In this document: one piece after another, positions 4,362-59,290 of the stretch | How positions within the stretch are numbered: the first letter of the stretch is position 1 | How the letters are laid out: every line of letters starts with the position of its first letter | Source of the DNA: Eledone cirrhosa | Lineage: Eukaryota | Assembly: GCA_964016885.1 (NCBI GenBank) | Contig: OZ024743.1 | Location: forward strand, 111,290,001-111,354,000 | DNA: 64,000 nt | Direction: 5' to 3' | The notes under the pieces: model-generated | Told to the model about the DNA's origin: nothing | Seen by the model: only the letters and a program-made list of their open reading frames with translations | Database searches by the model: none | Made by a program: the position numbers and the translations under genes

Positions 4362-7300
4362 TATTTCTATTTATTTGCCACCCGGGCATCAAAGATTGGG
4401 ACACATACAAAGGGGGGAGTTTACATACATTTAAAAAGACGTGTAAAAAACATATAACAAATTAAATTTAACAATCGATGTCCTCAATAGGGAGGGGTGT
4501 TGACATGGGTCGCACACACCTCCGAAAAAATGTGGAACCCTCCTCTTCAGGAGCACAAAGAGCGGGTGCTTCCTTCCTCTTCTCATTCTTCTCCTCTCTC
4601 ACCTACAGGCTGATATAGAGAGAAGGCCCATTCACTCGGGCCATTCTCGCTACTTTCACCCATCTTTCATAAAACTTGCTGGGGTAGAGCACCTCTCTCT
4701 TCATTCTGATCCTTCTTCTAAAGTGGTACTTGAAAAAAAAGACCAATTTATTGGCCGGAGAGATAGGTGTCTGACCTCAGCCCTTTCAACCTTGTCCACC
4801 ATACAACTTCTTTCGCCATGGCTATCACACAGAGGAAAACCGCCTCTCCTTCGTTTTTGAAAGGGGGAGGCGGTTTGATTGTGACAATGTTCTCGGTGGT
4901 CAACCGGATTGGTCCCACCCGCGACAGTAGTCGTTCTACATAGCCCCACAGGTCAGCAACGCCCGGGCAGTGTACGAATGCGTGTGCGACGGTTTTCTCG
5001 TCACGCACGCATCTTGGACAGATCTTCTGCGAGGGGTCCCTACCCGGGCGCCCGTGTCTGTAGAGCTTGTCCCGAACGGGTAGAGCTCCTCGGTAACATT
5101 GCCAAGCCAGGGACCTTTGGAAGTTGTCCATCGGTCCCGGACCAAACGTCCTACCGAACAGACTTGACAGCTCGTCTTCCTCCATGCCCAGAGCCTCTCC
5201 GAGAGCGTCGTCGCACTTACTGCGCACCAACCCTCTATAGAATGTTGAGGTTGAGTCTCCACTGATTGCCGGTTCCGTTGCCAGAGGGCCGTGAGCGCCT
5301 GGGCACATTCAATGTGCCAGTCGCCCACTTTTCTCGGTCTTTGCTTGACCCAGGATTGCAGCTCGGTGAGGTAAACGAGTCTCGGAAAGGCTCGCCTCAC
5401 AAACAGGGCCCACACCGGCTGACCGGTGAGGAATACCTGGAGGTGCCGTAGCCTTAATGCGTGTCTACGCATCGTCAGCCACGGCAGCCCCAGCCCTCCA
5501 TTCGAAAGGTGTTGACAGCAGATGGATCTTCTCACCAAAGGAGCCCGCTTCTTCCAAAGAAATCGGAAGAGCGCGCGCTCCATTTAGGAGAGTGTTTTCT
5601 CTGGGCAAGGCACGATGGTCAAGCGGTAGTAGATGACGGACGCTATATAAGCGTTCGCCACCTCCGCTCGACCTTTCAGGGATAGTTTGCACTCGGCCCA
5701 CTTCTGGGCGAGTGTAAACACCTTGCCCGTTACCTCGTCCCAGTTTTTCTCCACCTGGAGGTCCGGTCCGAACCAGACTCCGAGCAGCTTCACTGGTCCC
5801 TCCGTCCAGCGTCCGACGATGCCGTCGGAGGGCATCGTTTTGCCCCTCCACGTTCCGAGTTGCAAACCGACGGACTTGTCCCGGTTCAGCTTGGCTCCTG
5901 TGAACCTTTCATATTCCTCCAGTAAGGTGCCGATCTGCCCGATTTTCGAGGCGCACGACACCATTACTGTCACGTCATCAGCGTAGGCCGACACCGCTTT
6001 CCGCAATCCCGGTTCCAAGGGGATGCCCTGCAACAGCTCCAGATTCCTCAGTAGTGGCTCGAGAGCCAGCACATACAGGAGGGAGGAGAGAGGGCATCCA
6101 TGTCGAATGGATCGCGTGATTTGGAACGGCTCCGAGAGGTAGCCGTTCAACTTGACCCACTAGCAGGTGTTGCTGCTGTGCATTGCAGCAATCCAGCCCC
6201 TGAAAACGGGTCCGAAGCCTGCCGCCGCGAGCACCGCATCCAGGTACCGATGGTCAACCCTATCGAACGCTTTAGATTGATCCAAGTTGATCAGGGCTCC
6301 ACCAAAGCCGGGTTCGTTCCCTACCCTCTCTACGATGTATCGTATGAGGTGGAGGTTGTCGTGTATGGACCTGGACGGGATTGCGCATGTCTGCGCTTCT
6401 CCCACCAGGTTCCCGACGACAAGCGCCAACCTCTTCGCTAACACCTTGGCCAAAATCTTTAACTTTGTGTTTAGCAGAGTTATGGGCCTGAAGTTATCTA
6501 TGTCATCCCCCTTGTTCTCGTCCTTCCTCGCCAGCGTGACTACGCCCTTGGTCACAGAACTGGGAATTCTCCCGTTCTGTTGCCAATTGCAGTAGACCGC
6601 CTCGAGGAGACCGGAGAACAAGCCCGGCATCGCTACATAAAGTTCGTATGGTAGACCATCGAGACCCGGAGAATTGCGATTGCCGCATTGGCTCAGCGCT
6701 TCCCCTATTTTAGCGGCTGAAATCGGCCTCTCGCAGGACTTCGCCTCACCGTCCGAGAGCCGCGCCAGACCGTCGAGGTATGGACCGAAATCCATGGCCC
6801 CACCCGGCCCACCGCCCCTCCCGAAGAGTCGTGCAAAGCGCCGTTGAAAGGCCGCGCTCATCCGCTCAGGTTCAAGGATCACGCGTCCATCCTGGTCCTT
6901 CAATGACCGAATCGTGGACTTTTTTCCACTTTTTGCCTCTGTCACTCGGGCCCAGCTAACAGCTTTGGCTCCTTCGTTACCCACTGCACGTATTTTACTC
7001 CTGACAACGCAGCCCTCGTGCTTCGCATCAAAGAACTGGTCTAGAGCCGTTCTTGACGCCAGCACGCCGGCCACGTTGCCACTCCTAATCGCCTCTTCTT
7101 CTCTATTTGTTAATTCCCTTTCAGTTCTATTCCTATCTGATGCTAATTCCCGACTAAAACGTATCGATTCTGTTCTAATTTCTCTTTTGAGAGAGCCCCA
7201 CCACCTGTTGTTTACAATTGCCCCCGTCAAACGCTGCTTAACTAGTGTGCTAATCCGCTTACTGTAAGCTTTGTTTGTCGGTAAAGACAAGTTTAGCTTC

Positions 7301-9113
7301 CAGTAACCGGGTCCCTGTCTATGAGTTCTATCAAGGTTGAACACTCCGGTCAACAACTTGTGATCCGAATAGTCAACCATGAACATTCGTGGACAGTTTA
7401 ATATGTCCCTATCCTTATTACTAACTAGGAACCTATCTAGGTACGACCTGGATGTTCCGCTGCGATTACTCCACGTCCACCGTGGCACAGTCGGAAAATC
7501 CAGTCGATATCTATCGGCCAGATCAAATCGGCCGATTAATCGTTTGAGGCTGTTACACCCCCCTCTATCGGGACATGCCCCTACATACTCCCAACGTGTA
7601 TCCAGGATACCATTCCAGTCCCCCACTAAAAGCAAGGAGCGAGACGTTCCCAGGAAATTCTCCAGGCGTCGGAAGAAGTCCGGTCGCGGAGTCCCCGATG
7701 AGGCATACGCTGCCACCAGCCTGAAAGCTCCACCTTCACCACTGCCGACGTCTAAAACCACCACTCGACCCTCCAGGTCCAGGTGTACCTTCTGTGTGGC
7801 AAGACCAAGGTATTTTCGCAGTAGAACGACAACCTCACCCCCACCCCTCTGCTGACAGAGAGATGCGTAGATCTCAAAGTCGTCGAAGATGGGGGCCAGT
7901 TGGCGCTCGCTGCTGATCCTGGACTCGCAAATAACCATTACATCCACTCTGTGCGACCTGAGGTCATTTAATTGAGGATAGGCAGCCCTCAGGTGACCCC
8001 TGCTTAAGCAGTGGTAACATGACGTCCACCTTCCCTCCACTGAAATGTTTATATAAGTTAGCCCGTCCAGAGGCACGCGTTGTGGGATATTCGCTATTCG
8101 TTCTGGGCTCATTTGCACCAGAACTTCTACGGTGGTCCCACCAAATACACCTCCGGAGGACTTTCCTATTGAAATTATCTTGTCTTCGTCAAAGTTTATT
8201 ATTCCACATAGTATCCACCAAATGTTTACATTTGGTGTGATATTCATTATTTTTATTCTTTGTGTCTTTTTTCCCCTGTATGTGGGGTAAAAGGTGAAGC
8301 CGGGGGACACACTGGGTGCTATCGAGTACTTTTGAGCTGTTGACTGGTTGTTCATCAGCACCGAAATGCTACCAAACAGTTTACCTTTTTGTATGAAGGT
8401 TAAGTCCTTCATTGCGTCTTTTAGAACCAATCAATTTCATTTTGTGATAATTGAGCTGGTTTTCTTTTTACGTTCGATATTGTCCTGTGGTTTTCAGGAC
8501 AGCCTCTCTACGTAATTCCTGTGGAGAATTGATGCTAAAAGCACCGTTTCGCCAAAAGTCACGAATTGTTTTGCGGCTTGTATTAGTTGTTTAGCATTTG
8601 TTATGTCTATTGGCGTGTATAGTTCGTTTTTTTTTACGGTCTGTGCAAATGTTGTTTTGGTGTTGTTGTCTTTCATGTTACTGTCACTGTTGGTAATATT
8701 GGTGTTGCTATTGTTGCAGTTGATGGTTGTGGTGTTGTTGTCATTGTTCTTGTTGTTGGTGCTGGTATTATTTACCGGGTTTGGTTTCGCGGTTTCGATA
8801 TTTTCCACGTTTTTAGATGATACGAGGGGGGACGGCTGCAAGCTTTGTACTCCTACCTTCCCTTTTCTTAGTGGGCGTGGCACTCACGACAGCGTGCGAG
8901 GTGGAAATGGCATCCATTGCCACCAAGTCTACAGTTTTTAGATGAAAATTGAAAATTTCGCCCCAGAAAGGGGCGAAAATTTGTTGACTTAACGTCTGAA
9001 GGCCAAGGCAAGGGGCTAAACCAAACAATGTTATTAAATTGATCAATAAACTCACAGTTTTTTTGACAACAATCCGTAAAATTCCGGAGCAAAGTAAATC
9101 ACGTCTATATCAA
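4362..9113 (-). mobile_element. L1/Tx1-clade non-LTR retrotransposon, near full length, disrupted
   Basis: ORF1 pieces (8494-8883; 8430 down to ~7975 with knuckle CYHC..GH), APE endonuclease (GDWN, SYLDRF, SDH), RT (PGLDG, LDQSKAFDRVDH, YADD), C-terminal CPRC..HAFVHC; A-rich 3' end near 4362-4380; candidate TSD gtg(a/g)taattgatata. Confidence 0.92.
4748..8430 (-). pseudogene. Tx1 ORF1-ORF2 (APE + RT) broken by stops and frameshifts
   Basis: Track pieces 6160-8430, 5584-6150, 4936-5583 and 4748-5308 are consecutive parts of one polyprotein. Confidence 0.9.
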
Positions 9114-17600: not shown

Positions 17601-18510
17601 AGAGAGGAAAGAGACAGTGACCGTTTGAGGGAGAGTCGGGAAGGTGTAAGGGAGTGAGAGTGTGTGACGGAGAGAGAGAGAGAATGAGGGAGAAAGATTG
17701 AATGAAAGAGAGAAAGAAAACTTGTGTTATTGTGATTTTTGTGTGCGTTCATATATTCACCTTGTCTATCTTTTAGTTGGTTGCTGCGTGCGACTGTGTC
17801 TGTGCGCGAGAGTGTCTGTGAACGCGTGCGTGTAAGTGCTTGCTGTTATGTGTGTACCTCTCTCTATATACGTTTTTGTGTGTGTGTATGTTTAAGATGG
17901 AATGTGGGGGTTAAATTCGATGAGAATGGTGGTGGGAGGTGTTTGCGAGAAAATTACACGTGCTGACGCCAACCGTTCTTAATGGTTTCTCTTCGAACGA
18001 AGACATTTCCCCTCTATCTCTACCTCTCCACGCTGTCTCCCTCTTCCTCTATCTTCCATACCACTCTGTACTCCTCCATGGCACACCATTCCTCATTCTA
18101 ACACACCCTACTCAATAACACCCTTCTTAGCACTCTATGCGATTCTACTACACTCCAATCATACTACCCAATGACTACCCACTCTCTAAAGCCTTCCCAC
18201 CCCTTCCAGTTCTACTATATCCATCAACACTACAACTGCAAACCAGCACACCACAACTACCACTACCATCACTGCACCAAACATCACCACTGGAATTACC
18301 ACTACCACCACTGTGGTAAATATCACCATAACGACAACCACTAGCTCGACTGCGGTAAACATCACCAAAAACCACCAATAAAAACATTGCGAAAAACACC
18401 ACCAGCAAATTGCTACTGCCACCAATTCAGTAAACATCATCACTACAACTACTACCACTGTCACTGCAGCTAGCATTCTCACCACAAATACTACTACTAC
18501 CACGGCGGTA

Positions 18511-21010
18511 AACATGGACAGAACTAGCTTAAGATCCTCTACCAGCACTACCACAAACATCGACAGAACTAGCTTAGGATCCACTACCAGCACTACGGCA
18601 AACATTGACAGAACTAGCTTAAGATCCTCTACCAGCACTACGGCAAACATCGACAGGACTAGCGTAAGGTCCTCTACCAGCACTACGACAAACATCGACA
18701 GAACTAGCTTAAGATCCTCTACCAGCACTACGGCAAACATCGACAGAACTAGCTTAAGATCCTCTACCAGCACTACGGCAAACATCGACAGAACTAGCTT
18801 AAGATCCTCTACCAGCACTACGACAAACATCGACAGAACTAGCTTAAGATACACTAGCAGCACTACGACAAACATCGACAGAACTAGCTTAAGATCCTCT
18901 ACCAGCACTACGACAAACATCGACAGAACTAGCTTAAGATCCTCTACCAGCACTACGACAAACATCGACAGAACTAGCTTAAGATCCACTACCAGCACTA
19001 CGGCAAACATTGACAGAACTAGCTTAAGATACTCTACCAGCACTACGGCAAACATCGACAGGACTAGCGTAAGGTCCTCTACCAGCACTACGACAAACAT
19101 CGACAGAACTAGCTTAAGATCCTCTACCAGCACTACGGCAAACATCGACAGAACTAGCTTAAGATCCTCTACCAGCACTACGGCAAACATCGACAGAACT
19201 AGCTTAAGATCCTCTACCAGCACTACGACAAACATCGACAGAACTAGCTTAAGATCCTCTACCAGCACTACGACAAACATCGATAGAACTAGCTTAAGAT
19301 CCTCTACCAGCATTACCACAAACATTGACATAACTAGCTTAAGATACACTAGCAGCACTACGGCAAATATTGAGAGAACTAGCTTAAGATCCTCTACCAG
19401 CACTACGGCAAACATCGACAGAACTAGCTTAGGATCCACTACCAGCACTACGGCAAACATTGACAGAACTAGCTTAAGATCCACTACCAGCACTACCACA
19501 AACATCGACAGAACTAGCGTAAGATCCACTAGCAGCACTACGGCAAATATTGAGAGAACTAGCTTAAGATCCTCTACCAGCAATACGGCAAACATTGACA
19601 GAACTAGCTTAAGATCCTCTACCAGCACTACGACAAACATCGACAGAACTAGCTTAGGATCCACTACCAGCACTACGGCAAACATTGACAGAACTAGCTT
19701 AAGATCCTCTACCAGCACTACGACAAACATCGACAGAACTAGCTTAAGATCCTCTACCAGCACTACGGCAAACATCGACAGAACTAGCTTAAGATCCTCT
19801 ACCAGCACTACGACAAACATCGACAGAACTAGCTTAGGATCCACTACCAGCACTACGGCAAACATTGACAGAACTAGCTTAAGATACTCTACCAGCACTA
19901 CGGCAAACATCGACAGGACTAGCGTAAGGTCCTCTACCAGCACTACGACAAACATCGACAGAACTAGCTTAAGATCCTCTACCAGCACTACGGCAAACAT
20001 CGACAGAACTAGCTTAAGATCCTCTACCAGCACTACGACAAACATCGACAGAACTAGCTTAGGATCCTCTACCAGCATTACCACAAACATTGACATAACT
20101 AGCTTAAGATACACTAGCAGCACTACGGCAAATATTGAGAGAACTAGCTTAAGATCCTCTACCAGCACTACGACAAACATCGACAGAACTAGCTTAGGAT
20201 CCACTACCAGCACTACGGCAAACATTGACAGAACTAGCTTAAGATCCACTACCAGCACTACCACAAACATCGACAGAACTAGCGTAAGATCCACTAGCAG
20301 CACTACGGCAAATATTGAGAGAACTAGCTTAAGATCCTCTACCAGCAATACGGCAAACATTGACAGAACTAGCTTAAGATCCTCTACCAGCACTACGACA
20401 AACATCGACAGAACTAGCTTAAGATCCTCTACCAGCACTACGACAAACATCGACAGAACTAGCTTAAGATCCTCTACCAGCACTACGACAAACATCGACA
20501 GAACTAGCTTAAGATCCTCTACCAGCATTACCACAAACATCGACATAACTAGCTTAAGATCCTCTACCAGCATTACCACAAACATCGACATAACTAGCTT
20601 AAGATACACTAGCAGCACTACGGCAAACATTGACAGAACTAACTTAAGATCCTCTACCAGCACTACGACAAACATCGACAGAACTAGCTTAAGATCCTCT
20701 ACCAGCACTACGACAAACATCGACAGAACTAGCTTAAGATCCTCTACCAGCATTACCACAAACATCGACATAACTAGCTTAAGATACACTAGCAGCACTA
20801 CGGCAAACATTGACAGCACTAGCTTAAGATGCACTACCAGCACTACGTCAAACATTGACAGAACTAGCTTAAGATACACTACCAGCACTACGGCAAACAT
20901 TGACAGAACTAGCTTAAGATACACTACCAGCACTACGGCAAACATTGACAGAACTAGCTTAAGATACCCTACCAGCACTACGGCAACCATTGACAGAACT
21001 AGCTTAGGAT
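18511..21010. repeat. 45-bp minisatellite, ~55 units
   Basis: Unit aacatcgacagaactagcttaagatcctctaccagcactacg(g/a)ca; higher-order duplication with 765-bp (17-unit) spacing. Confidence 0.97.
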
Positions 21011-21108
21011 CCCCAACCAAGACTGCGTCTAACACCTTCAGCACTGACTTAAGCACCACTACCAACAGTTCCACTAGTATCACCACGAAATTGCCATCGC
21101 TACTATGA
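18514..21108 (+). CDS. Possible mucin-like Thr/Ser-rich repeat exon (NIDRTSLRSSTSTTA)n
   Basis: 864-aa ORF; Thr-rich non-repeat flanks in the same frame; no splice evidence. Confidence 0.35.
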   Translation: MDRTSLRSSTSTTTNIDRTSLGSTTSTTANIDRTSLRSSTSTTANIDRTSVRSSTSTTTNIDRTSLRSSTSTTANIDRTSLRSSTSTTANIDRTSLRSSTSTTTNIDRTSLRYTSSTTTNIDRTSLRSSTSTTTNIDRTSLRSSTSTTTNIDRTSLRSTTSTTANIDRTSLRYSTSTTANIDRTSVRSSTSTTTNIDRTSLRSSTSTTANIDRTSLRSSTSTTANIDRTSLRSSTSTTTNIDRTSLRSSTSTTTNIDRTSLRSSTSITTNIDITSLRYTSSTTANIERTSLRSSTSTTANIDRTSLGSTTSTTANIDRTSLRSTTSTTTNIDRTSVRSTSSTTANIERTSLRSSTSNTANIDRTSLRSSTSTTTNIDRTSLGSTTSTTANIDRTSLRSSTSTTTNIDRTSLRSSTSTTANIDRTSLRSSTSTTTNIDRTSLGSTTSTTANIDRTSLRYSTSTTANIDRTSVRSSTSTTTNIDRTSLRSSTSTTANIDRTSLRSSTSTTTNIDRTSLGSSTSITTNIDITSLRYTSSTTANIERTSLRSSTSTTTNIDRTSLGSTTSTTANIDRTSLRSTTSTTTNIDRTSVRSTSSTTANIERTSLRSSTSNTANIDRTSLRSSTSTTTNIDRTSLRSSTSTTTNIDRTSLRSSTSTTTNIDRTSLRSSTSITTNIDITSLRSSTSITTNIDITSLRYTSSTTANIDRTNLRSSTSTTTNIDRTSLRSSTSTTTNIDRTSLRSSTSITTNIDITSLRYTSSTTANIDSTSLRCTTSTTSNIDRTSLRYTTSTTANIDRTSLRYTTSTTANIDRTSLRYPTSTTATIDRTSLGSPTKTASNTFSTDLSTTTNSSTSITTKLPSLL

Positions 21109-35717: not shown

Positions 35718-37858
35718 ATTGGAATAAATGCTCTGAAATAGCGATATATATGTGAATATAGACATAGAATATTCGAAAATATTCTGTATGTTTATAATAA
35801 ACATTTTGAAGACCTAATCGCTATAGAATAGAATACGTCACGTATTACAATTAGATTCTCGATAAAAGCAAGGGAAGTAATCTACGCGTTTCATTCTTGT
35901 TAGAAATCATCAGGACTACATATCCAGTGCTTTTATCGAGAATGACACAGCTAGAGACTTATAGAATACTTAGCTGTGTACAGGAACTGGTTTGAAAGAG
36001 CGGTTGCCGGTCCGGCAGAAATTAGAAATTGGAATAAATGCTCTGAAATAGCGATATATATGTGAATATAGACATAGAATATTCGAAAATATTCTGTATG
36101 TTTAGTCTCTAGCTGTGTCATTCTCGATAAAAGCACTGGATATGTAGTCCTGATGATTTCTAACAAGAATGAAACGCGTAGATTACTTCCCTTGCTTTTA
36201 TCGAGAATCTAATTGTAATACGTGACGTATTCTATTCTATAGCGATTAGGTCTTCAAAATGTTTATTATAAACATACAGAATATTTTCGAATATTCTATG
36301 TCTATATTCACATATATATCGCTATTTCAGAGCATTTATTCCAATTTCTAATTTCTGCCGGACCGGCAACCGCTCTTTCAAACCAGTTCCTGTACACAGC
36401 TAAGTATTCTATAAGTCTCTAGCTGTGTCATTCTCGATAAAAGCACTGGATATGTAGTCCTGATGATTTCTAACAAGAATGAAACGCGTAGATTACTTCC
36501 CTTGCTTTTATCGAGAATCTAATTGTAATACGTGACGTATTCTATTCTATAGCGATTAGGTCTTCAAAATGTTTATTATAAACATACAGAATATTTTCGA
36601 ATATTCTATGTCTATATTCACATATATATCGCTATTTCAGAGCATTTATTCCAATTTCTAATTTCTGCCGGACCGGCAACCGCTCTTTCAAACCAGTTCC
36701 TGTACACAGCTAAGTATTCTATAAGTCTCTAGCTGTGTCATTCTCGATAAAAGCACTGGATATGTAGTCCTGATGATTTCTAACAAGAATGAAACGCGTA
36801 GATTACTTCCCTTGCTTTTATCGAGAATCTAATTGTAATACGTGACGTATTCTATTCTATAGCGATTAGGTCTTCAAAATGTTTATTATAAACATACAGA
36901 ATATTTTCGAATATTCTATGTCTATATTCACATATATATCGCTATTTCAGAGCATTTATTCCAATTTCTAATTTCTGCCGGACCGGCAACCGCTCTTTCA
37001 AACCAGTTCCTGTACACAGCTAAGTATTCTATAAGTCTCTAGCTGTGTCATTCTCGATAAAAGCACTGGATATGTAGTCCTGATGATTTCTAACAAGAAT
37101 GAAACGCGTAGATTACTTCCCTTGCTTTTATCGAGAATCTAATTGTAATACGTGACGTATTCTATTCTATAGCGATTAGGTCTTCAAAATGTTTATTATA
37201 AACATACAGAATATTTTCGAATATTCTATGTCTATATTCACATATATATCGCTATTTCAGAGCATTTATTCCAATTTCTAATTTCTGCCGGACCGGCAAC
37301 CGCTCTTTCAAACCAGTTCCTGTACACAGCTAAGTATTCTATAAGTCTCTAGCTGTGTCATTCTCGATAAAAGCACTGGATATGTAGTCCTGATGATTTC
37401 TAACAAGAATGAAACGCGTAGATTACTTCCCTTGCTTTTATCGAGAATCTAATTGTAATACGTGACGTATTCTATTCTATAGCGATTAGGTCTTCAAAAT
37501 GTTTATTATAAACATACAGAATATTTTCGAATATTCTATGTCTATATTCACATATATATCGCTATTTCAGAGCATTTATTCCAATTTCTAATTTCTGCCG
37601 GACCGGCAACCGCTCTTTCAAACCAGTTCCTGTACACAGCTAAGTATTCTATAAGTCTCTAGCTGTGTCATTCTCGATAAAAGCACTGGATATGTAGTCC
37701 TGATGATTTCTAACAAGAATGAAACGCGTAGATTACTTCCCTTGCTTTTATCGAGAATCTAATTGTAATACGTGACGTATTCTATTCTATAGCGATTAGG
37801 TCTTCAAAATGTTTATTATAAACATACAGAATATTTTCGAATATTCTATGTCTATATT
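35718..37858. repeat. Array 1 of the 310-bp hammerhead unit (retrozyme-like): ~1.2 units on -, ~5.7 units on +
   Basis: Marker ttctcgataa at 36121, 36431, 36741, 37051, 37361, 37671; inversion junction at ~36103; (TA)n on both flanks. Confidence 0.95.
36120..36208 (+). ncRNA. Type I minimal hammerhead with extended stem I (repeats every 310 bp)
   Basis: attctcgataaaagca/tgcttttatcgagaat 16-bp stem; gtagtc-CTGATGA-t ttct aaca agaa t-GAAA-cgcg-TA-gattac; predicted cut after 36180. Confidence 0.85.
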
Positions 37859-42385: not shown

Positions 42386-42599
<214 letters not shown>

Positions 42600-42600
42600 A

Positions 42601-42763
<163 letters not shown>

Positions 42764-42814
42764 TGTATATATATATATATATATATATAAATATTTATAT
42801 ATATATATATATAA

Positions 42815-45596
42815 ATTGGAATAAATGCTCTGAAATAGCGATATATATGTGAATATAGACATAGAATATTCGAAAATATTCTGTATGTTTATAATAAACA
42901 TTTTGAAGACCTAATCGCTATAGAATAGAATACGTCACGTATTACAATTAGATTCTCGATAAAAGCAAGGGAAGTAATCTACGCGTTTCATTCTCGTTAG
43001 AAATCATCAGGACTACATATCCAGTGCTTTTATCGAGAATGACACAGCTAGAGACTTATAGAATACTTAGCTGTGTACAGGAACTGGTTTGAAAGAGCGG
43101 TTGCCGGTCCGGCAGAAATTAGAAATTGGAATAAATGCTCTGAAATAGCGATATATATGTGAATATAGACATAGAATATTCGAAAATATTCTGTATGTTT
43201 ATAATAAACATTTTGAAGACCTAATCGCTATAGAATAGAATACGTCACGTATTACAATTAGATTCTCGATAAAAAGCAAGGGAAGTAATCTACGCGTTTC
43301 ATTCTCGTTAGAAATCATCAGGACTACATATCCAGTGCTTTTTATCGAGAATGACACAGCTAGAGACTTATAGAATACTTAGCTGTGTACAGGAACTGGT
43401 TTGAAAGAGCGGTTGCCGGTCCGGCAGAAATTAGAAATTGGAATAAATGCTCTGAAATAGCGATATATATGTGAATATAGACATAGAATATTCGAAATAT
43501 TCTGTATGTTTATAATAAACATTTTGAAGACCTAATCGCTATAGAATAGAATACGTCACGTATTACAATTAGATTCTCGATAAAAGCAAGGGAAGTAATC
43601 TACGCGTTTTCATTCTCGTTAGAAATCATCAGGACTACATATCCAGTGCTTTTATCGAGAATGACACAGCTAGAGACTTATAGAATACTTAGCTGTGTAC
43701 AGGAACTGGTTTCGAATATTCTATGTCTATATTCACATATATCGCTATTTCAGAGCATTTATTCCAATTTCTAATTTCTGCCGGACCGGCAACCGCTCTT
43801 TCAAACCAGTTCCTGTACACAGCTAAGTATTCTATAAGTCTCTAGCTGTGTCATTCTCGATAAAAGCACTGGATATGTAGTCCTGATGATTTCTAACGAG
43901 AATGAAACGCGTAGATTACTTCCCTTGCTTTTATCGAGAATCTAATTGTAATACGTGACGTATTCTATTCTATAGCGATTAGGTCTTCAAATGTTTATTA
44001 TAAACATACAGAATATTTTCGAATATTCTATGTCTATATTCACATATATATCGCTATTTCAGAGCATTTATTCCAATTTCTAATTTCTGCCGGACCGGCA
44101 ACCGCTCTTTCAAACCAGTTCCTGTACACAGCTAAGTATTCTATAAGTCTCTAGCTGTGTCCATTCTCGATAAAAGCACTGGATATGTAGTCCTGATGAT
44201 TTCTAACGAGAATGAAACGCGTAGATTACTTCCCTTGCTTTTATCGAGAATCTAATTGTAATACGTGACGTATTCTATTCTATAGCGATTAGGTCTTCAA
44301 AATGTTTTATTATAAAACATACAGAATATTTTCGAATATTCTATGTCTATATTCACATATATATCGCTATTTCAGAGCATTTATTCCAATTTCTAATTTC
44401 TGCCGGACCGGCAACCGCTCTTTCAAACCAGTTCCTGTACACAGCTAAGTATTCTATAAGTCTCTAGCTGTGTCATTCTCGATAAAAGCACTGGATATGT
44501 AGTCCTGATGATTTCTAACGAGAATGAAACGCGTAGATTACTTCCCTTGCTTTTATCGAGAATCTAATTGTAATACGTGACGTATTCTATTCTATAGCGA
44601 TTAGGTCTTCAAAATGTTTATTATAAACATACAGAATATTTTCGAATATTCTATGTCTATATTCACATATATATCGCTATTTCAGAGCATTTATTCCAAT
44701 TTCTAATTTCTGCCGGACCGGCAACCGCTCTTTCAAACCAGTTCCTGTACACAGCTAAGTATTCTATAAGTCTCTAGCTGTGTCATTCTCGATAAAAGCA
44801 CTGGATATGTAGTCCTGATGATTTCTAACGAGAATGAAACGCGTAGATTACTTCCCTTGCTTTTATCGAGAATCTAATTGTAATACGTGACGTATTCTAT
44901 TCTATAGCGATTAGGTCTTCAAAATGTTTATTATAAACATACAGAATATTTTCGAATATTCTATGTCTATATTCACATATATATCGCTATTTCAGAGCAT
45001 TTATTCCAATTTCTAATTTCTGCCGGACCGGCAACCGCTCTTTCAAACCAGTTCCTGTACACAGCTAAGTATTCTATAAGTCTCTAGCTGTGTCATTCTC
45101 GATAAAAGCACTGGATATGTAGTCCTGATGATTTCTAACGAGAATGAAACGCGTAGATTACTTCCCTTGCTTTTATCGAGAATCTAATTGTAATACGTGA
45201 CGTATTCTATTCTATAGCGATTAGGTCTTCAAAATGTTTATTATAAACATACAGAATATTTTCGAATATTCTATGTCTATATTCACATATATATCGCTAT
45301 TTCAGAGCATTTATTCCAATTTCTAATTTCTGCCGGACCGGCAACCGCTCTTTCAAACCAGTTCCTGTACACAGCTAAGTATTCTATAAGTCTCTAGCTG
45401 TGTCATTCTCGATAAAAGCACTGGATATGTAGTCCTGATGATTTCTAACGAGAATGAAACGCGTAGATTACTTCCCTTGCTTTTATCGAGAATCTAATTG
45501 TAATACGTGACGTATTCTATTCTATAGCGATTAGGTCTTCAAAATGTTTATTATAAACATACAGAATATTTTCGAATATTCTATGTCTATATTCAT
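42815..45596. repeat. Array 2 of the 310-bp hammerhead unit: ~2.9 units on -, ~6 units on +
   Basis: Same unit as array 1 but loop II reads aacg; junction at ~43712; (TA)n flanks. Confidence 0.95.
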
Positions 45597-45619
45597 ATAT
45601 ATATATATATGTGTGTATA

Positions 45620-45805
45620 GCAAGAGATATCAACATGAATGGACCTGTTATTTTTTTTATCTAAATACATTTTTTCAAATTCAAACCCGCCCGGCGCTTC
45701 GTTGCATCTTATTTCTCATTCTTTCTTCTGATGAAGGATTAGAGTCCGAAAGGTGAAGTCCCGCTTCCTGCTATTTCAAGCGTTAACCTAATATATTCCT
45801 TCCAT
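45620..45805 (+). mobile_element. Hammerhead-bearing short element (family D)
   Basis: CTGATGA(45728)-aggat taga gtcc-GAAA; homologous to 52310-52500. Confidence 0.7.

Positions 45806-53693: not shown

Positions 53694-53763
<70 letters not shown>
53694..53763. repeat. (TAA)n tract, Dong target
   Basis: Seen directly. Confidence 0.95.
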
Positions 53764-53765
<2 letters not shown>

Positions 53766-54197
53766 TGGGATTTTAGGATACAGACGGACAAGAAACTGGA
53801 ACACAATAGACCTGACCTGGTGGTTGTGGACAAAGAAAAAAGATCGTGTCTGATTGTGGATGTGGCCTGCCCATTCGATACGAGAGTGCAAGAGAAGGAG
53901 AGGGAGAAAATTAACCGATACCAGGACTTAAAGTGGGAGGTAAAAAGGATTTGGAAATGCCATGAAGTCAAAGTGATCCCGATTGTCATAGGCGCACTGG
54001 GGACTATCTGCAAAAGTTTCCAGGGATGGTTAAAGAATATCGGCCCCTTCACGCTTTTTGGAACGCTTCAAAAGGCATGCTTGCTGGGAACAGCAAGAAC
54101 CCTCCGATACGTCCTGATATCTGAAGCTGCAGGTAGTGGCTTGATATTCATTCCAACGGACTTTCCAGTTAACCAAAATCAATGACTGAGATTCAAG

Positions 54198-54276: not shown

Positions 54277-57200
54277 CCCCTCCCCTCCTCTCCTCTGGCT
54301 ACACTATATAGGACAGCTAAACTCACCAACACCAGAAACTAGATACACCACCCACCCCATCATCTGTGTACACTAAACACAACAGCCAGATAACGACACA
54401 TTTTCACCTTCACCGCCACCGCTCACTACGGCCATCATTACCACCACTATCCCATCACCGCCGCCACCACCCCTTGACTCCGCTACAGCACCATCACTAC
54501 AGTAATACGGTCACATCACCGCCACCACTGCCTCGGTATCGACATCACCACCACCACTGTCTCAGTATCGCTAACGCCGCCAGTCTCCCACTTCCCTGCT
54601 GGCTGCCACTTCCACATTATAGAATTCCTACTACTAACAAAGAGGAAGGCATCAAAATATATAGATAGACCCAAAAGAAAAAAGAAAAAACAAACAACAA
54701 AACCAAAGCAGCACAGCAACAACAGCAAAAAACGAGAAAAACAAACAGAGAAAAACAAAAACAAAAAAAAGAAACCCCAAAAACGTAAAGAAAATATATT
54801 GTTATAAGGCTCAAAACGTAAAGAAAATATATTGTTATAAGGCTCAAAACGTAAAGAAAATATATTGTTATAAGGCTCAAATATTCAAATATTCAACTTT
54901 GTATTGTACACTGTATATCCAAGAAAAAAAAAAAAAAAAAAATGGCTATAAATGGAAGAAGAACCCCTCCCCTCCTCTCCTCTGGCTACACTATATAGGA
55001 CAGCTAAACTCACCAACACCAGAAACTAGATACACCACCCACCCCATCATCTGTGTACACTAAACACAACAGCCAGATAACGACACATTTTCACCTTCAC
55101 CGCCACCGCTCACTACGGCCATCATTACCACCACTATCCCATCACCGCCGCCACCACCCCTTGACTCCGCTACAGCACCATCACTACAGTAATACGGTCA
55201 CATCACCGCCACCACTGCCTCGGTATCGACATCACCACCACCACTGTCTCAGTATCGCTAACGCCGCCAGTCTCCCACTTCCCTGCTGGCTGCTACTTCC
55301 ACATTATAGAATACCTACTACTAACAAAGAGGAAGGCATCAAAATATATAGATAGACCCAAAAGAAAAAAGAAAAAACAAACAACAAAACCAAAGCAGCA
55401 CAGCAACAACAGCAAAAAACGAGAAAAACAAACAGAGAAAAACAAAAACAAAAAAAAGAAACCCCAAAAACGTAAAGAAAATAAGAATGAAGAGAGAAGC
55501 AGGCGGACGGACAGAGAAGAGGGGGGAAAAAGTAAAACTTAAAAAACTAAAACTAAGTCAGACATTCGAACACTACATTACAATGAAACTTATGCTTATT
55601 CATTTCTGGGGCCCTTTCTGCCTGTGTGTTTGTTTGTTTATGTGTGTTCGTATACAGCGTGGTGATAATGCCACACAAGGGCCAAGTGGGATGGCGGATC
55701 CACAGATGGCTATGTAAACATACATTCGCCAATCCTCGATAAGAGTGTTTAAATATCGAACATAAACAGTTCGAATAACGGTGAAATGGAGACTAGAACG
55801 TCATGTGGCAGACTCTCACCCAACAGGTGCCCCCTGGCTCAGCAGCAGGAACCTGACTGTCAACCAAATACTGCTGATGTTGGAGGAAGGAGAAGAAGGA
55901 AAGGGGCCAGAACCAACTGGACGAAAGAATTGAATAGAACTGTTATGCAATGCTACCTGAAAAGTAACCCCAAGGAGAGGGGCTACAGGAGACGGATGCA
56001 TAACATCTGGAACGAGATTGGTTTATTTAAATTAGATGAACAAAAATTGGCCGGGCAGGCTCGGGTAATAAGAACTAATGGGTGGATAAGCGAGCTGGAA
56101 CTGGAGGAACTGAGCAGAGAGAATGGCTTGGAGATGGCGGGTGTAGTATGCCAGACAAGCGAGCCGGTGGGAAATGAAGGTGAGGAGGTCCTGAGAACGG
56201 AGGAACCACCCGAAGCAGACAATGATCTGAGTACTGAGATAAATAATACCTGGAACAGAGATACGGCCACTGAGGAGATGAATGCTGACGGGCTAGGACA
56301 AGATTCGGTTGACATCCTAAATGTAGTGGTAGATGAATTGAACAATGATAGTGGGAGACCTATGAACCTAAGATTTGTAGACAGGAAAAAGTTAAAAGAA
56401 ACAACAAGGTAAACAAAGTCATCCCATACCTTGAGGCGAGGAGCCTTCACCAGTGCAACAATATCCTCAGAGCAACAGCAAATACGGTGAGGAAACTACT
56501 TGGTATAAAAGCGAGAGGAAACAACAGACAAGAAAGAGCAGAGCCGTGGTGGAAGAAGCAACTGAGTGGGCAAATCGGGGAAATGAGAAATGACATAGGA
56601 AAGCTTGAGTCACTACTGAATGGGACACTAAAAAACATAGGCACTAAAAATAGACTGGAAATAAAATACAAAACTAGGAGTAAAAAGCTAAATATTATCA
56701 TAGAGGAATTGAAGCAACGCATTGTAGCAAAGAGTGCAAAAATCAGGCGATACGAGAACAGAGTCAGCCAGTATAAACAGAACCGCATGTTCGACAACAA
56801 CCAGAAGATGCTGTTTGGACAGCTTGAGGGCAAAGAAAGAGGCAACGACTTGATCCCTGGGGCGGAGCAAACTAAAACATTCTGGAGAGGAATATGGGAG
56901 CAGGATGTTAGACACAATGCCCAGGCAGGGTGGATTGAGACAGTACAGAGGGAGATCGGTGAGCAGGCACAGCAACAGACTGATTTGAGTATCACAGTTG
57001 AAACTCTTAAGGGGCAAGCCAAAAAACTAACCAACTGGAAATCACCAGGCCCAGATGGTGTGCAGGGGTATTGGATTAAACATCTAACATCCCTCCACCC
57101 GAAGCTGACGGCCATGTTCAATGACTGCTTGGTGTCGGGTGAGGTGCCAGAGTGGTTGACAAAAGGTACCACAGTTCTGATAATGAAAGACCGAATCAAG

Positions 57201-59290
57201 GGTAATGATGCTACCAACTATAGACCTATCACATGTCTGCCCGTAATGTGGAAACTGTTGACGAGCATTGTGTCTGAGGAAATCTACCATCACCTCCACA
57301 CAAACAACTTGTTACCGGACGAACAGAAAGGATGCCGAAAGAAGTCACGTGGTACAAAGGACCAGTTGCTTATTGATAAGATGGTAATGGGGAATTGCAG
57401 GAGGAGACATACTGATCTTGCCATGGGATGGATAGACTACAGAAAGGCATTTGACATGGTGCCTCATTCCTGGATCACCAAAAGCCTGGAGATCTTCAGG
57501 GTGGCAGATAACATCAGACAGTTGCTAGGCAGGAGTATGGGGTCCTGGGAGACAGAGTTGACATCAACTGGAGTATCCTTGGGAAGCGTGAAGATCAAGA
57601 GAGGTATCTTCCAGGGAGATAGCCTGTCCCCTCTGTTGTTTGTCCTTGCCCTGATGCACTTAACCATTATGCTGCGAAAAGTGAGAGCAGGATACAAGTT
57701 GGGAAGGGGAGAGCTTACCATCAATCACCTCCTCTTCATGGACGATCTTAAGCTCTTCGGGAAAAGTGAGAAGGAGTTGGATGTGCTTGTTGACACTGTC
57801 CGTATTTTCAGCAGTGATATATGTATGCAGTTTGGTATTGGTAAATGTGGAGTCATTGTGATGAAGAGGGGTAGGTTGAGCAGAAGTAACGGGATCCAGA
57901 TACCAACAGGTGAGATGATAAAGGAAATTGACTCTGAGGAAGGATACAAGTATTTGGGCGTTCTGGAGGCTGATGGCATAAAGAACAAAATAATGAAGGA
58001 ATTGTTAAGAACTGAATACATTCGGAGAGTAAGGAGCGTATTGAAGTCACATCTGAACAGCAGAAATGCCATAAGCGCAGTAAATTCCCGAGCTGTGTCT
58101 ATTATTAGGTACAGTGCGGGAATTCTGAGATGGAATGTTGCTGAACAGAAAGAAATGGATAGGAAGACTAGGAAGCTATTGACTATCTACAACATGTTCC
58201 ACAAGAGGAGTGATGTCGATAGACTCTACCTAAGGAGATCTGAGGGTGGAAGAGGTCTTATCAGCATAGAGGACTGTGTTCAGATGGAGAAAAACAACCT
58301 ATACAAATACGTGACCTATAGTAAGGAGCCAATGCTCAGAGCTGTACTGAAGGAGGGGACAGTAGGCCAGGGGATGTCCAGGGAGGAAATAACATCAAGG
58401 AGGAAGAGCAGCCTTAAGGGAAAACCCCTTCATAGTACCTTCTTTGAGAAAACTGAATTTAGAGATCCACAGACATGGAACTGGTTGAGAAGAGGAGACC
58501 TCAAAAAGGCTACAGAAGGAATGCTAATGGCTGCGCAGGAGCAGGCCCTCAAAACGAAGTGGTTGAAGCACCATATCTACAAAGAGGAGGCCAGCCCACT
58601 GTGCAGGATCTGTGGAGAGAGAGAGGAGACTGTGGCTCACATTGTGTCCGAGTGTAAACACCTAGCCCAGACCCACTATAAGGGCTGGAGACACGATGTG
58701 ATGGGCAGGGTGATCCACTGGCACCTGTGCAAAGTAAACAATCTACCACATTCTGAGAAATGGTATGAGCATAGGCCAGAGGCGGTGATGGAGAACAATC
58801 AGGTGAAGGTGCTGTGGGATTTTAGGATACAGACGGACAAAAAACTGGAACACAATAGACCTGACCTGGTGGTTGTGGACAAAGAAAAAAGATCGTGCCT
58901 GATTGTGGATGTGGCCTGCCCGTTCGACACGAGAGTGCAAGAGAAGGAGAGGGAGAAAATTAACCGATACCAGGACCTAAAGTGGGAGGTGAAAAGGATT
59001 TGGAACTGCCATGAAGTCAAAGTGATCCCGATTGTCATAGGCGCACTGGGGACTATCTCCAAAAGTTTCCAGGGATGGTTAAAGAAAATCGGCCCCTTCA
59101 CGCTTTTTGGAACGCTTCAAAAGGCATGCTTGCTTGGAACAGCAAGAACCCTCCGATACGTCCTGAATATCTGAGGCTGCAGGTAGTGGCTTGATATTCA
59201 ATCCAACGGACTTTCCAGTTAACCAACATCAATGACTGAGAATCAAGGAATAACAATAACAATAATAATAATAATAATAATATTGATAAT
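54275..59290 (+). mobile_element. R4/Dong-clade non-LTR retrotransposon, near full length, in (TAA)n
   Basis: Single long frame with RT and RLE domains, short 3'UTR, (TAA)n tail; 5' boundary uncertain because the leader is duplicated. Confidence 0.92.
55786..59174 (+). CDS. R4/Dong RT-RLE polyprotein with one frameshift at ~56405
   Basis: N-terminus RTNWTKELN..CY..S.P..RGYRRRM..IW; RT motifs PGPDG, IDYRKAFD, GIFQGDSLSP, LFMDDLK; CRIC..H..EC; RPD..IVDVACP. Confidence 0.9.

What the first reader, a model, noticed from the sequence alone, without database searches (positions are those of the whole stretch)
42815..45596. Second array: same outer ends, different inversion junction, array-specific ribozyme variant
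Seen: 3 minus-strand and 6 plus-strand hammerheads. All read ctaacGagaat, whereas all array-1 units read ctaacAagaat; the difference is in loop II, where change is tolerated. Both arrays start at 'ttggaataaatgc' and end at 'ctatgtctatatt' next to (TA)n, but the inversion points differ (tatgttt|agtctct versus ctggttt|cgaatatt). Inference: each array was copied from its own single template variant (as rolling-circle copying of one circRNA predicts) in independent insertions 5 kb apart. Scattered homopolymer indels may be sequencing errors.
Basis: partly seen in the sequence, partly recalled or inferred. Interest (0 to 1): 0.8.

Follow-up and report, generated by a model that had tools for sequence, protein, structure and literature searches.

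The report
Retrozyme arrays with Penelope insertion signature
A 310-base repeat with a predicted self-cutting RNA motif is scattered through this animal genome as back-to-back arrays that always end at the same two points, which suggests that a Penelope-type jumping gene likely copies a small, probably circular RNA into both ends of one DNA break.

Summary
The array is one copy of a young family of animal (non-LTR) retrozymes: a 310-nt unit with a type I hammerhead, 9,022 exact core matches in a 3.0-Gb genome. The inversion is the family rule. 76 of 78 two-armed arrays have one arm ending at site B (128-139 nt after the cleavage site) and the other at site A (163-172), both pointing outward into (TA)n. 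This is the 30-40 nt 'tail' signature of Penelope-like elements (PLEs). Junctions lie at many positions and are enriched for microhomology. Both arms usually share one haplotype, and variants fixed in whole arrays spare the ribozyme (0 of 8 break it, against 12 of 12 single-unit changes). The G/A difference is a family-wide dimorphism, not private to this array. Likely mechanism: a PLE enzyme primes reverse transcription from both ends of one break, mostly on a monomer circle. Six arrays point to linear multimer templates or gene conversion, and very long arrays grew in place. No RNA data were found, nor the autonomous partner. The scan noted a similar PLE-type tandem element in another genome.

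The parts
42813..43712 (-). Array 2, left arm: 2.9 units, ribozyme strand pointing left, outer end at site A (unit phase 167)
43710..45595 (+). Array 2, right arm: 6.1 units, outer end at site B (unit phase 130)
43710..43712 (.). Head-to-head junction of array 2; 3-nt microhomology joining unit phases 200 and 105
   Evidence: sequence
44809..44851 (+). Example type I hammerhead: 6-bp stem I, 4-bp stem II with tetraloop (G/A variant at 44830), self-complementary 6-nt stem III; predicted cleavage after 44845. Other plus-strand sites after 43913, 44223, 44535, 45155, 45465; minus-strand sites at 43601, 43291, 42980
44846..45155 (+). One complete 310-nt unit, cleavage site to cleavage site (predicted monomer or circle)
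44973..45017 (+). 'Tail' interval between end site B (phases 128-139, includes an (AU)4 tract) and end site A (phases 165-172); the region best conserved in older related families
42391..42812 (.). Left (TA)n target tract
45596..45610 (.). Right (TA)n target tract
35718..36104 (-). Array 1, left arm: 1.2 units, outer end at site A (phase 165)
36104..37858 (+). Array 1, right arm: 5.7 units, outer end at site B (phase 128); A variant in loop II

Best explanation
This is one copy of a young non-coding hammerhead repeat family whose arrays are two head-to-head arms ending at two fixed sites in (TA)n, likely inserted ready-made by the enzyme of a Penelope-like element that would prime reverse transcription from both ends of one DNA break, most often on a predicted 310-nt RNA circle. 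Steps: (1) Arrays are transcribed (inferred). Neighbouring hammerheads pair as a double hammerhead (predicted fold) and release monomers that host ligase circularises (by analogy with PMC7229834). (2) A PLE reverse transcriptase with GIY-YIG endonuclease binds the tail region (inferred from conservation) and cuts both strands in (TA)n with a stagger (target-site duplications seen at the few informative sites). (3) One 3' end starts cDNA at site B, probably helped by pairing of the RNA's (AU)4 tract with the target; the other starts at site A (two fixed ends shown; priming inferred). (4) Each cDNA runs on through cleavage sites for 1.2-1.7 kb on average. (5) The two cDNA ends are joined by microhomology-type end joining, which gives the variable inversion junction (junction features shown; pathway inferred). 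A minority of insertions probably use uncleaved linear multimers, and the longest arrays expand later in place. My odds: PLE-type mobilisation 0.9; priming from both ends 0.7; monomer circle as the main template 0.6.
For: 76 of 78 two-armed arrays have one A end and one B end; 1 is AA and 1 is cut by a gap; random pairing would give half AA or BB. All 11 two-armed arrays among the 13 chosen by the hammerhead motif alone follow the rule. Inverted ends with a 30-40 nt tail at one end are described for PLEs (PMC8557442, PMC3846280), and a purified PLE protein cuts and extends both strands and starts at two sites that bound the tail (PMC11167929). Microhomology of 2 nt or more at 30 of 51 junctions without inserted bases, against 18% expected. 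Only 1 of 102 junction phases is within 5 nt of the cleavage site (3.3 expected), so templates are read through those sites. Target-site duplications: 15 nt at L039 (seen in the output), and 4 of 84 arrays against 0.17 in shuffled pairs. 81 of 93 arrays are homogeneous apart from single-unit changes. There are 22 haplotypes in 65 arrays; one two-variant haplotype is fixed in both arms of just two arrays genome-wide. Fixed substitutions that break the hammerhead: 0 of 8, against 12 of 12 single-unit ones (p=8e-6); in the long flanking stem 0 of 4 against 7 of 8. The unconstrained minimum-energy fold of a natural two-unit stretch is the double hammerhead, 10 kcal/mol below two single ones. PLE families with RT and GIY-YIG domains and long open frames (844-938 aa for one family) are present and also end in (TA)n at two alternative points.
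Against: No RNA was seen: transcription, cleavage and circles are untested. No autonomous element with a repeat similar to the unit was found in 110 PLE-containing stretches; the hits inspected were separate insertions of older relatives. Six arrays share unit-level variants or haplotype switches between arms (L118, L099, L084 in register from the outer ends; L085, L053, L068 out of register), which a monomer circle cannot give. Two arms of 45-46 units are mosaics with repeated blocks, so growth in place does occur. Variants that looked private in my sample are small subfamilies (one has 325 units), and I found no parent array carrying such a variant in one unit only. In vitro, hammerhead cleavage was not needed for PLE insertion and unprocessed RNA was the main substrate (PMC11167929). 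Rfam gives no hammerhead match. The hammerhead has U-U at the base of stem II, where G-C is described as highly conserved (PMC4209133). 80 of the 93 first stretches were chosen by end patterns next to TA, so the TA preference rests on the 13 unbiased loci (22 of 24 ends).
Confidence: 0.68

Rival explanations
1. Same PLE-type insertion from both ends, but the template is normally an uncleaved linear multimer transcribed from homogeneous source arrays; circles are a side product.
For: In-register heterogeneity in both arms of L118, L099 and L084; cleavage was dispensable in vitro (PMC11167929); long arrays exist that could serve as sources.
Against: The two long arrays examined are mosaics, whereas 81 of 93 arrays are homogeneous. 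Fixing a new variant in all units of both arms needs a one-unit bottleneck. Propagated variants spare the ribozyme. Arm lengths are not significantly correlated (Spearman 0.18, p=0.12).
Confidence: 0.2
2. A short PLE-like insertion (inverted terminal repeat with tail) comes first, and each arm then expands locally by unequal crossing-over, with gene conversion homogenising the arms (the satellite route proposed in 10.64898/2026.07.22.740005).
For: Arrays of 45-46 units show repeated blocks; many short arrays of under 2 units per arm exist; out-of-register shared variants could be conversion.
Against: Concerted evolution should leave many partly spread variants, but only 10 of 94 arrays have any (one of them an artefact of a deletion counted in L118), against 85 single-unit substitutions. 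Arms of near-identical, very young arrays are already 4-6 units long on average.
Confidence: 0.08
3. The inversion arises by fold-back self-priming (on an antisense template, as proposed for PLEs in PMC3846280) or is an artefact of chimeric reads or assembly.
For: Self-priming is a published proposal for PLE inverted repeats; array 2 has local indel noise near its junction.
Against: The arms are asymmetric in length and phase, with 79 distinct phases in 102 junction ends. The flanks are unrelated. The A+B rule and target-site duplications would not result from fold-back reads. Contigs of an independent or source run also show site-B ends running into TA.
Confidence: 0.04

Closest known systems
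Animal non-LTR retrozymes (PMC7229834; 10.64898/2026.07.22.740005)
   Same: Tandem 150-450 bp non-coding repeats, low GC, one type I hammerhead per unit, thousands of copies, co-occurring with PLEs.
   Different: In the passages and sections I read, neither paper describes head-to-head arms, two fixed end sites or microsatellite targeting ('inverted' 0 hits in PMC7229834; 'tail', 'head-to', 'target site' 0 hits in the preprint). The preprint proposes local amplification for the tandem arrays. Expression and circles are shown there, not here.
EN+ Penelope-like elements (Penelope/Poseidon, Neptune, Naiad; PMC8557442, PMC3846280, PMC11167929, PMC4209133)
   Same: Inverted 5'-truncated partner copy, 30-40 nt tail at one end only, hammerhead upstream of the ends, dimer-type ribozyme, microsatellite or AT-rich targets, target-site duplications.
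   Different: No ORF; each arm is a pure concatemer of one 310-nt unit (up to 46 units). No terminal repeat of an autonomous element matching the unit was found.
Non-autonomous Chlamys elements such as MRC1 (PMC8557442)
   Same: Non-autonomous PLE derivatives with multicopy head-to-tail insertions.
   Different: Green algae; most Chlamys elements are described as lacking canonical hammerheads, and these share 3' sequence with known autonomous families.
L1 twin priming (recalled, not from a call)
   Same: Two primers from one break give an inverted structure joined by microhomology.
   Different: In L1 the second primer anneals internally and the two parts copy different stretches of the RNA. 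Here both arms start at fixed sites about 35 nt apart and copy the same sequence.

Membership tests
Non-LTR retrozyme | Short tandem repeat (150-450 bp), dimers to multimers, non-coding, GC below 50% | tested here: met
   310-nt unit, GC about 0.34-0.35, no ORF of 150 aa or more inside the arrays
Non-LTR retrozyme | Type I hammerhead in every unit | tested here: met
   Core, stems I and II and palindromic stem III by inspection and folding; structure-preserving fixed variants. Rfam models do not score it
Non-LTR retrozyme | No LTR, PBS or PPT; dispersed copies | tested here: met
   Arrays consist only of units between (TA)n tracts; 9,022 cores, 82 arrays in the first 128 Mb of C1
Non-LTR retrozyme | Expressed, self-cleaving, accumulating as circular RNA | not testable with these tools
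   No RNA holder listed; only predicted folds
EN+ PLE (autonomous) | ORF with RT and GIY-YIG endonuclease | tested here: not met
   No ORF in the arrays
PLE-mobilised non-autonomous element | Inverted partner arm and 30-40 nt tail at one end only | tested here: met
   76 of 78 two-armed arrays; end positions
PLE-mobilised non-autonomous element | Target-site duplication or microsatellite target | tested here: met
   22 of 24 ends in TA among the unbiased loci; duplications at L039 and in 4 of 84 arrays
PLE-mobilised non-autonomous element | Sequence shared with the terminal repeat of an autonomous PLE of the same genome | tested here: inconclusive
   None among 110 PLE-containing stretches, a small part of the more than 10,000 first-look candidates per search

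The most novel reading that the evidence does not exclude
These arrays are a genome-scale record of Penelope-type transposition on a circular RNA: one enzyme dimer straddles the tail on a single RNA molecule and launches two rolling-circle reverse transcriptions, one from each end of the break. This would explain at once how animal retrozymes spread, why their ribozyme is under selection, and why PLE insertions in general have an inverted end and a one-sided tail.
Probability: 0.45. Interest if true: 0.8.

Novelty: new variant of a known kind. Interest (0 to 1): 0.62.

Why it matters
How animal retrozymes are mobilised is stated as unresolved in both main papers (PMC7229834; 10.64898/2026.07.22.740005), and the origin of the tandem and inverted PLE structure is listed as an open task (PMC8557442). 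This family is very young and numerous (roughly 1,300-1,900 arrays by my estimate), and its units carry readable variants. It therefore names the two start sites, the target, the junction chemistry and the template rules for a direct in vitro test. It also suggests a natural route for writing a small circular RNA into DNA as a concatemer.

Tried and rejected
A DNA search of the own genome with one unit returned nothing because common words are skipped; patterns worked. Rfam gave no hammerhead match at either threshold. Sequencing runs: no RNA holder listed. Two raw Hi-C runs gave 0 laid reads, so they are no test. The unit occurs in runs labelled as 18 organisms. Of the six contig runs laid, five hold it only as one 340- or 394-nt contig at depth 3-365, and one (X5) holds the family at depth above 100,000 with the same common variants. 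X5 may be the assembly's source. I rejected horizontal transfer as a claim because low-level carry-over of an abundant repeat would look the same. The first test for target-site duplications did not discriminate (24 of 76 against 17.9 shuffled) and was replaced by a stricter one. BLAST-based junction phases (13 of 156 near the cleavage site) were an edge artefact and were replaced by exact extension. One search missed arrays with changes at the unit edge and was redone. A search for a parent array of the C210A haplotype found a 46-unit mosaic, but there the variant is always linked to another change that the homogeneous arrays lack, so it is not the source. A 15-nt resemblance between site B and the end of one Poseidon-like family is not conserved in older relatives, and I do not count it. 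Template jumping between different monomers was rejected because arrays are not mosaics of haplotypes. Empty-site polymorphism could not be tested.

Full report
OBSERVATION. The window holds two arrays of a 310-nt unit. Array 2 (42813-45595) is a 2.9-unit minus arm and a 6.1-unit plus arm joined head to head with a 3-nt overlap at 43710-43712; array 1 (35718-37858) is 1.2 plus 5.7 units with a different junction. All 9 cores of array 2 have G and all 7 of array 1 have A at unit phase 295, counting from the predicted cleavage site. The flanks of the two arrays are unrelated. Array 2 has 10 single-unit indel calls near its junction, probably consensus noise (not tested with reads).

THE RIBOZYME. 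Each unit has a type I hammerhead: 6-bp stem I, conserved core, 4-bp stem II with a tetraloop, and a self-complementary 6-nt stem III. This is the architecture described for metazoan hammerheads that work as dimers (PMC4209133, passages). The unconstrained minimum-energy fold of a natural two-unit stretch is the double hammerhead (-102.0 kcal/mol, against -92.1 for two single ones). The unit folded as a circle has z = -4.5 against 100 shuffles. Rfam does not match it. Activity is predicted, not shown.

FAMILY. The genome is 3.0 Gb and has 9,022 exact matches to the 29-nt core pattern, with 0 for the reversed control. I fetched 93 stretches of contig C1: 13 chosen by the hammerhead pattern alone and 80 by end patterns. 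I dropped 4 rows (one duplicate of another row, one gap-cut local duplicate, two from one complex locus) and merged one split array. That leaves 94 arrays including the two in the window: 78 two-armed and 16 one-armed. Twenty more stretches were fetched later for variant follow-up. Density is 82 arrays in 128 Mb; 3 neighbours lie within 10 kb against 0.5 expected (p=0.016), each pair with different haplotypes and junctions. So two independent arrays 5 kb apart are uncommon but not unique.

ENDS. 76 of 78 two-armed arrays have one arm ending at site A and the other at site B; one is AA and one is cut by a gap. The last matching base is 165 in 56 of 83 A ends and 167 in 12; it is 130 in 44, 139 in 25 and 128 in 18 of 88 B ends. 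Among the 13 unbiased loci, 11 are two-armed and all are A+B; 22 of their 24 ends abut TA repeats. Site B is followed in the RNA by an (AU)4 tract that could pair with the target (inference). Target-site duplications are hidden in pure TA but visible elsewhere: 15 nt at L039 (output) and 4 of 84 arrays against 0.17 in shuffled pairs, with lengths of 13 to 35 nt or more. An inverted 5'-truncated partner and a 30-40 nt tail at one end are the described PLE signature (PMC8557442 and PMC3846280, passages). A purified Poseidon protein cuts and extends both strands, prefers AT-rich DNA, is predicted to be a dimer and starts at two sites that bound the tail (PMC11167929, parts 1-2 of 4 read).

JUNCTIONS. 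51 of 78 have no inserted bases by exact extension; 30 of these have 2 nt or more of microhomology against 18% expected (p=1e-10). The other 27 have short, often templated insertions or a nearby indel; array 2 falls here because of a 2-nt deletion. Junction phases are spread over the unit (79 distinct in 102), with 1 near the cleavage site against 3.3 expected. Arms average 5.6 units (A) and 4.0 units (B), 10 of 152 have 10 units or more, and the two arm lengths are not significantly correlated.

TEMPLATE. Position 295 is all-A in 45, all-G in 19, A with one deletion in 1, and mixed in 0 of 65 arrays with both arms of at least one unit; these carry 22 haplotypes. Contigs of run X5 show about 74% A at this site, so the variant is a family-wide dimorphism. 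81 of 93 arrays of 3 or more units have only fixed or single-unit substitutions. Variants seen once in my sample are small subfamilies: C210A has 325 units; T119G with C131T has 29 matches, 28 of them in two arrays where it is fixed in both arms. Fixing such a change in every unit of both arms needs a one-unit bottleneck, as a monomer circle gives (inference). Fixed substitutions in the hammerhead keep its structure (0 of 8 break it; single-unit changes 12 of 12; p=8e-6), and so do those in the long flanking stem (0 of 4 against 7 of 8; my own classification). Three further fixed changes on the 3' side of stem I, two 1-nt insertions and one substitution, keep most of its pairing by inspection. 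This suggests that cleavage matters for spread.

AGAINST A CIRCLE IN EVERY CASE. L118 switches haplotype after the second unit in both arms; L099 and L084 share a variant in the first full unit of both arms; L085, L053 and L068 share variants out of register. These fit a linear multimer read twice, or later gene conversion; the in-register cases would also mean that both arms start in the same unit of one RNA. Two arms of 45-46 units are mosaics with repeated blocks, so they grew in place.

PARTNER. The genome has many GIY-YIG elements (10,595 first-look candidates, 150 scored). They include families with a CX2-5CxxC linker, as described for Neptune and Nematis, and frames of up to 938 aa, a Poseidon-like family (my label) and a young family with 713-aa frames. 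Several end in (TA)n at two alternative points. None of 110 PLE-containing stretches has a terminal repeat like the unit; the similar pieces that I inspected are separate insertions of older relatives, 73-85% identical, which conserve the tail region and site A but differ in the hammerhead. The partner is unidentified.

LITERATURE AND NOVELTY. Non-LTR retrozymes are known, and PLEs were proposed as their mobilisers (PMC7229834, passages). A 2026 preprint links them to PLE terminal repeats by co-occurrence and Xenopus phylogeny, and suggests local amplification (10.64898/2026.07.22.740005, parts 1-3 of 5 read plus a term search). Six library searches showed no paper describing head-to-head retrozyme arrays with paired end sites, or priming from both ends for PLEs. 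The library lacks most subscription papers, and I did not see the supplements of these papers (the model figure of PMC7229834, Fig. S2 of PMC11167929, the preprint's tables), which may bear on this. The scan's note e1-7881736 reports a ribozyme-free tandem element with PLE-type ends in another genome (not checked).

VERDICT. Real and biological: a new variant of a known kind. The class is known; the insertion rules read from about 100 young arrays are the new part. Interest 0.62.

Noticed in passing
window 45600-45800, 52196(-)/52417(+), 52733(-)/53295(+), 60970(+), 39461(-): Short hammerhead-like remnants of at least three other families beside (TA)n, two of them as head-to-head pairs; probably terminal-repeat remnants of other PLE-type elements.
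   Followed up: partly
L035:6873-7209, L048:4-273, L098:3718-4027, L119:3021-3389, L125:2426-2900, L155:1302-1709, L171:8990-9119: Older relatives of the unit (73-85% identical; period about 313-331 where two copies allow it) that keep the tail region and site A but have different hammerheads; L125 is also head-to-head.
   Followed up: partly
G000:C1:217795036-217810058 (L235-L237) and L091/L092: Arms of 45-46 units that are mosaics with repeated multi-unit blocks: satellite-like growth after insertion.
   Followed up: yes
L174-L203: Very young PLE family (98-99% protein identity, many 713-aa frames, 73,569 first-look candidates) whose hammerhead-like motif has A in place of the second base of the core.
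   Followed up: no
L160:1177, L163:7080-8210, L169:4130-4330: Another short head-to-head element in (TA)n whose hammerhead stem II resembles this family's, with a longer tail of about 65 nt.
   Followed up: no
window 55753-59174 (+), fragment at 53694-54185: Non-LTR retrotransposon with a 940-aa RT frame flanked by (AAT)n; R4/Dong-like by recall.
   Followed up: no
window 4748-8430 (-): Broken non-LTR element with apurinic endonuclease and RT domains.
   Followed up: no
window 18382-21108 (+): 45-bp tandem repeat (55.8 copies) open as a 908-aa Thr/Ser-rich frame; possibly a mucin-like exon.
   Followed up: no
L105, L044, L054: Exceptions: one array with two A ends, one with an extra internal inversion, one with 272 unrelated bases between the arms.
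   Followed up: partly
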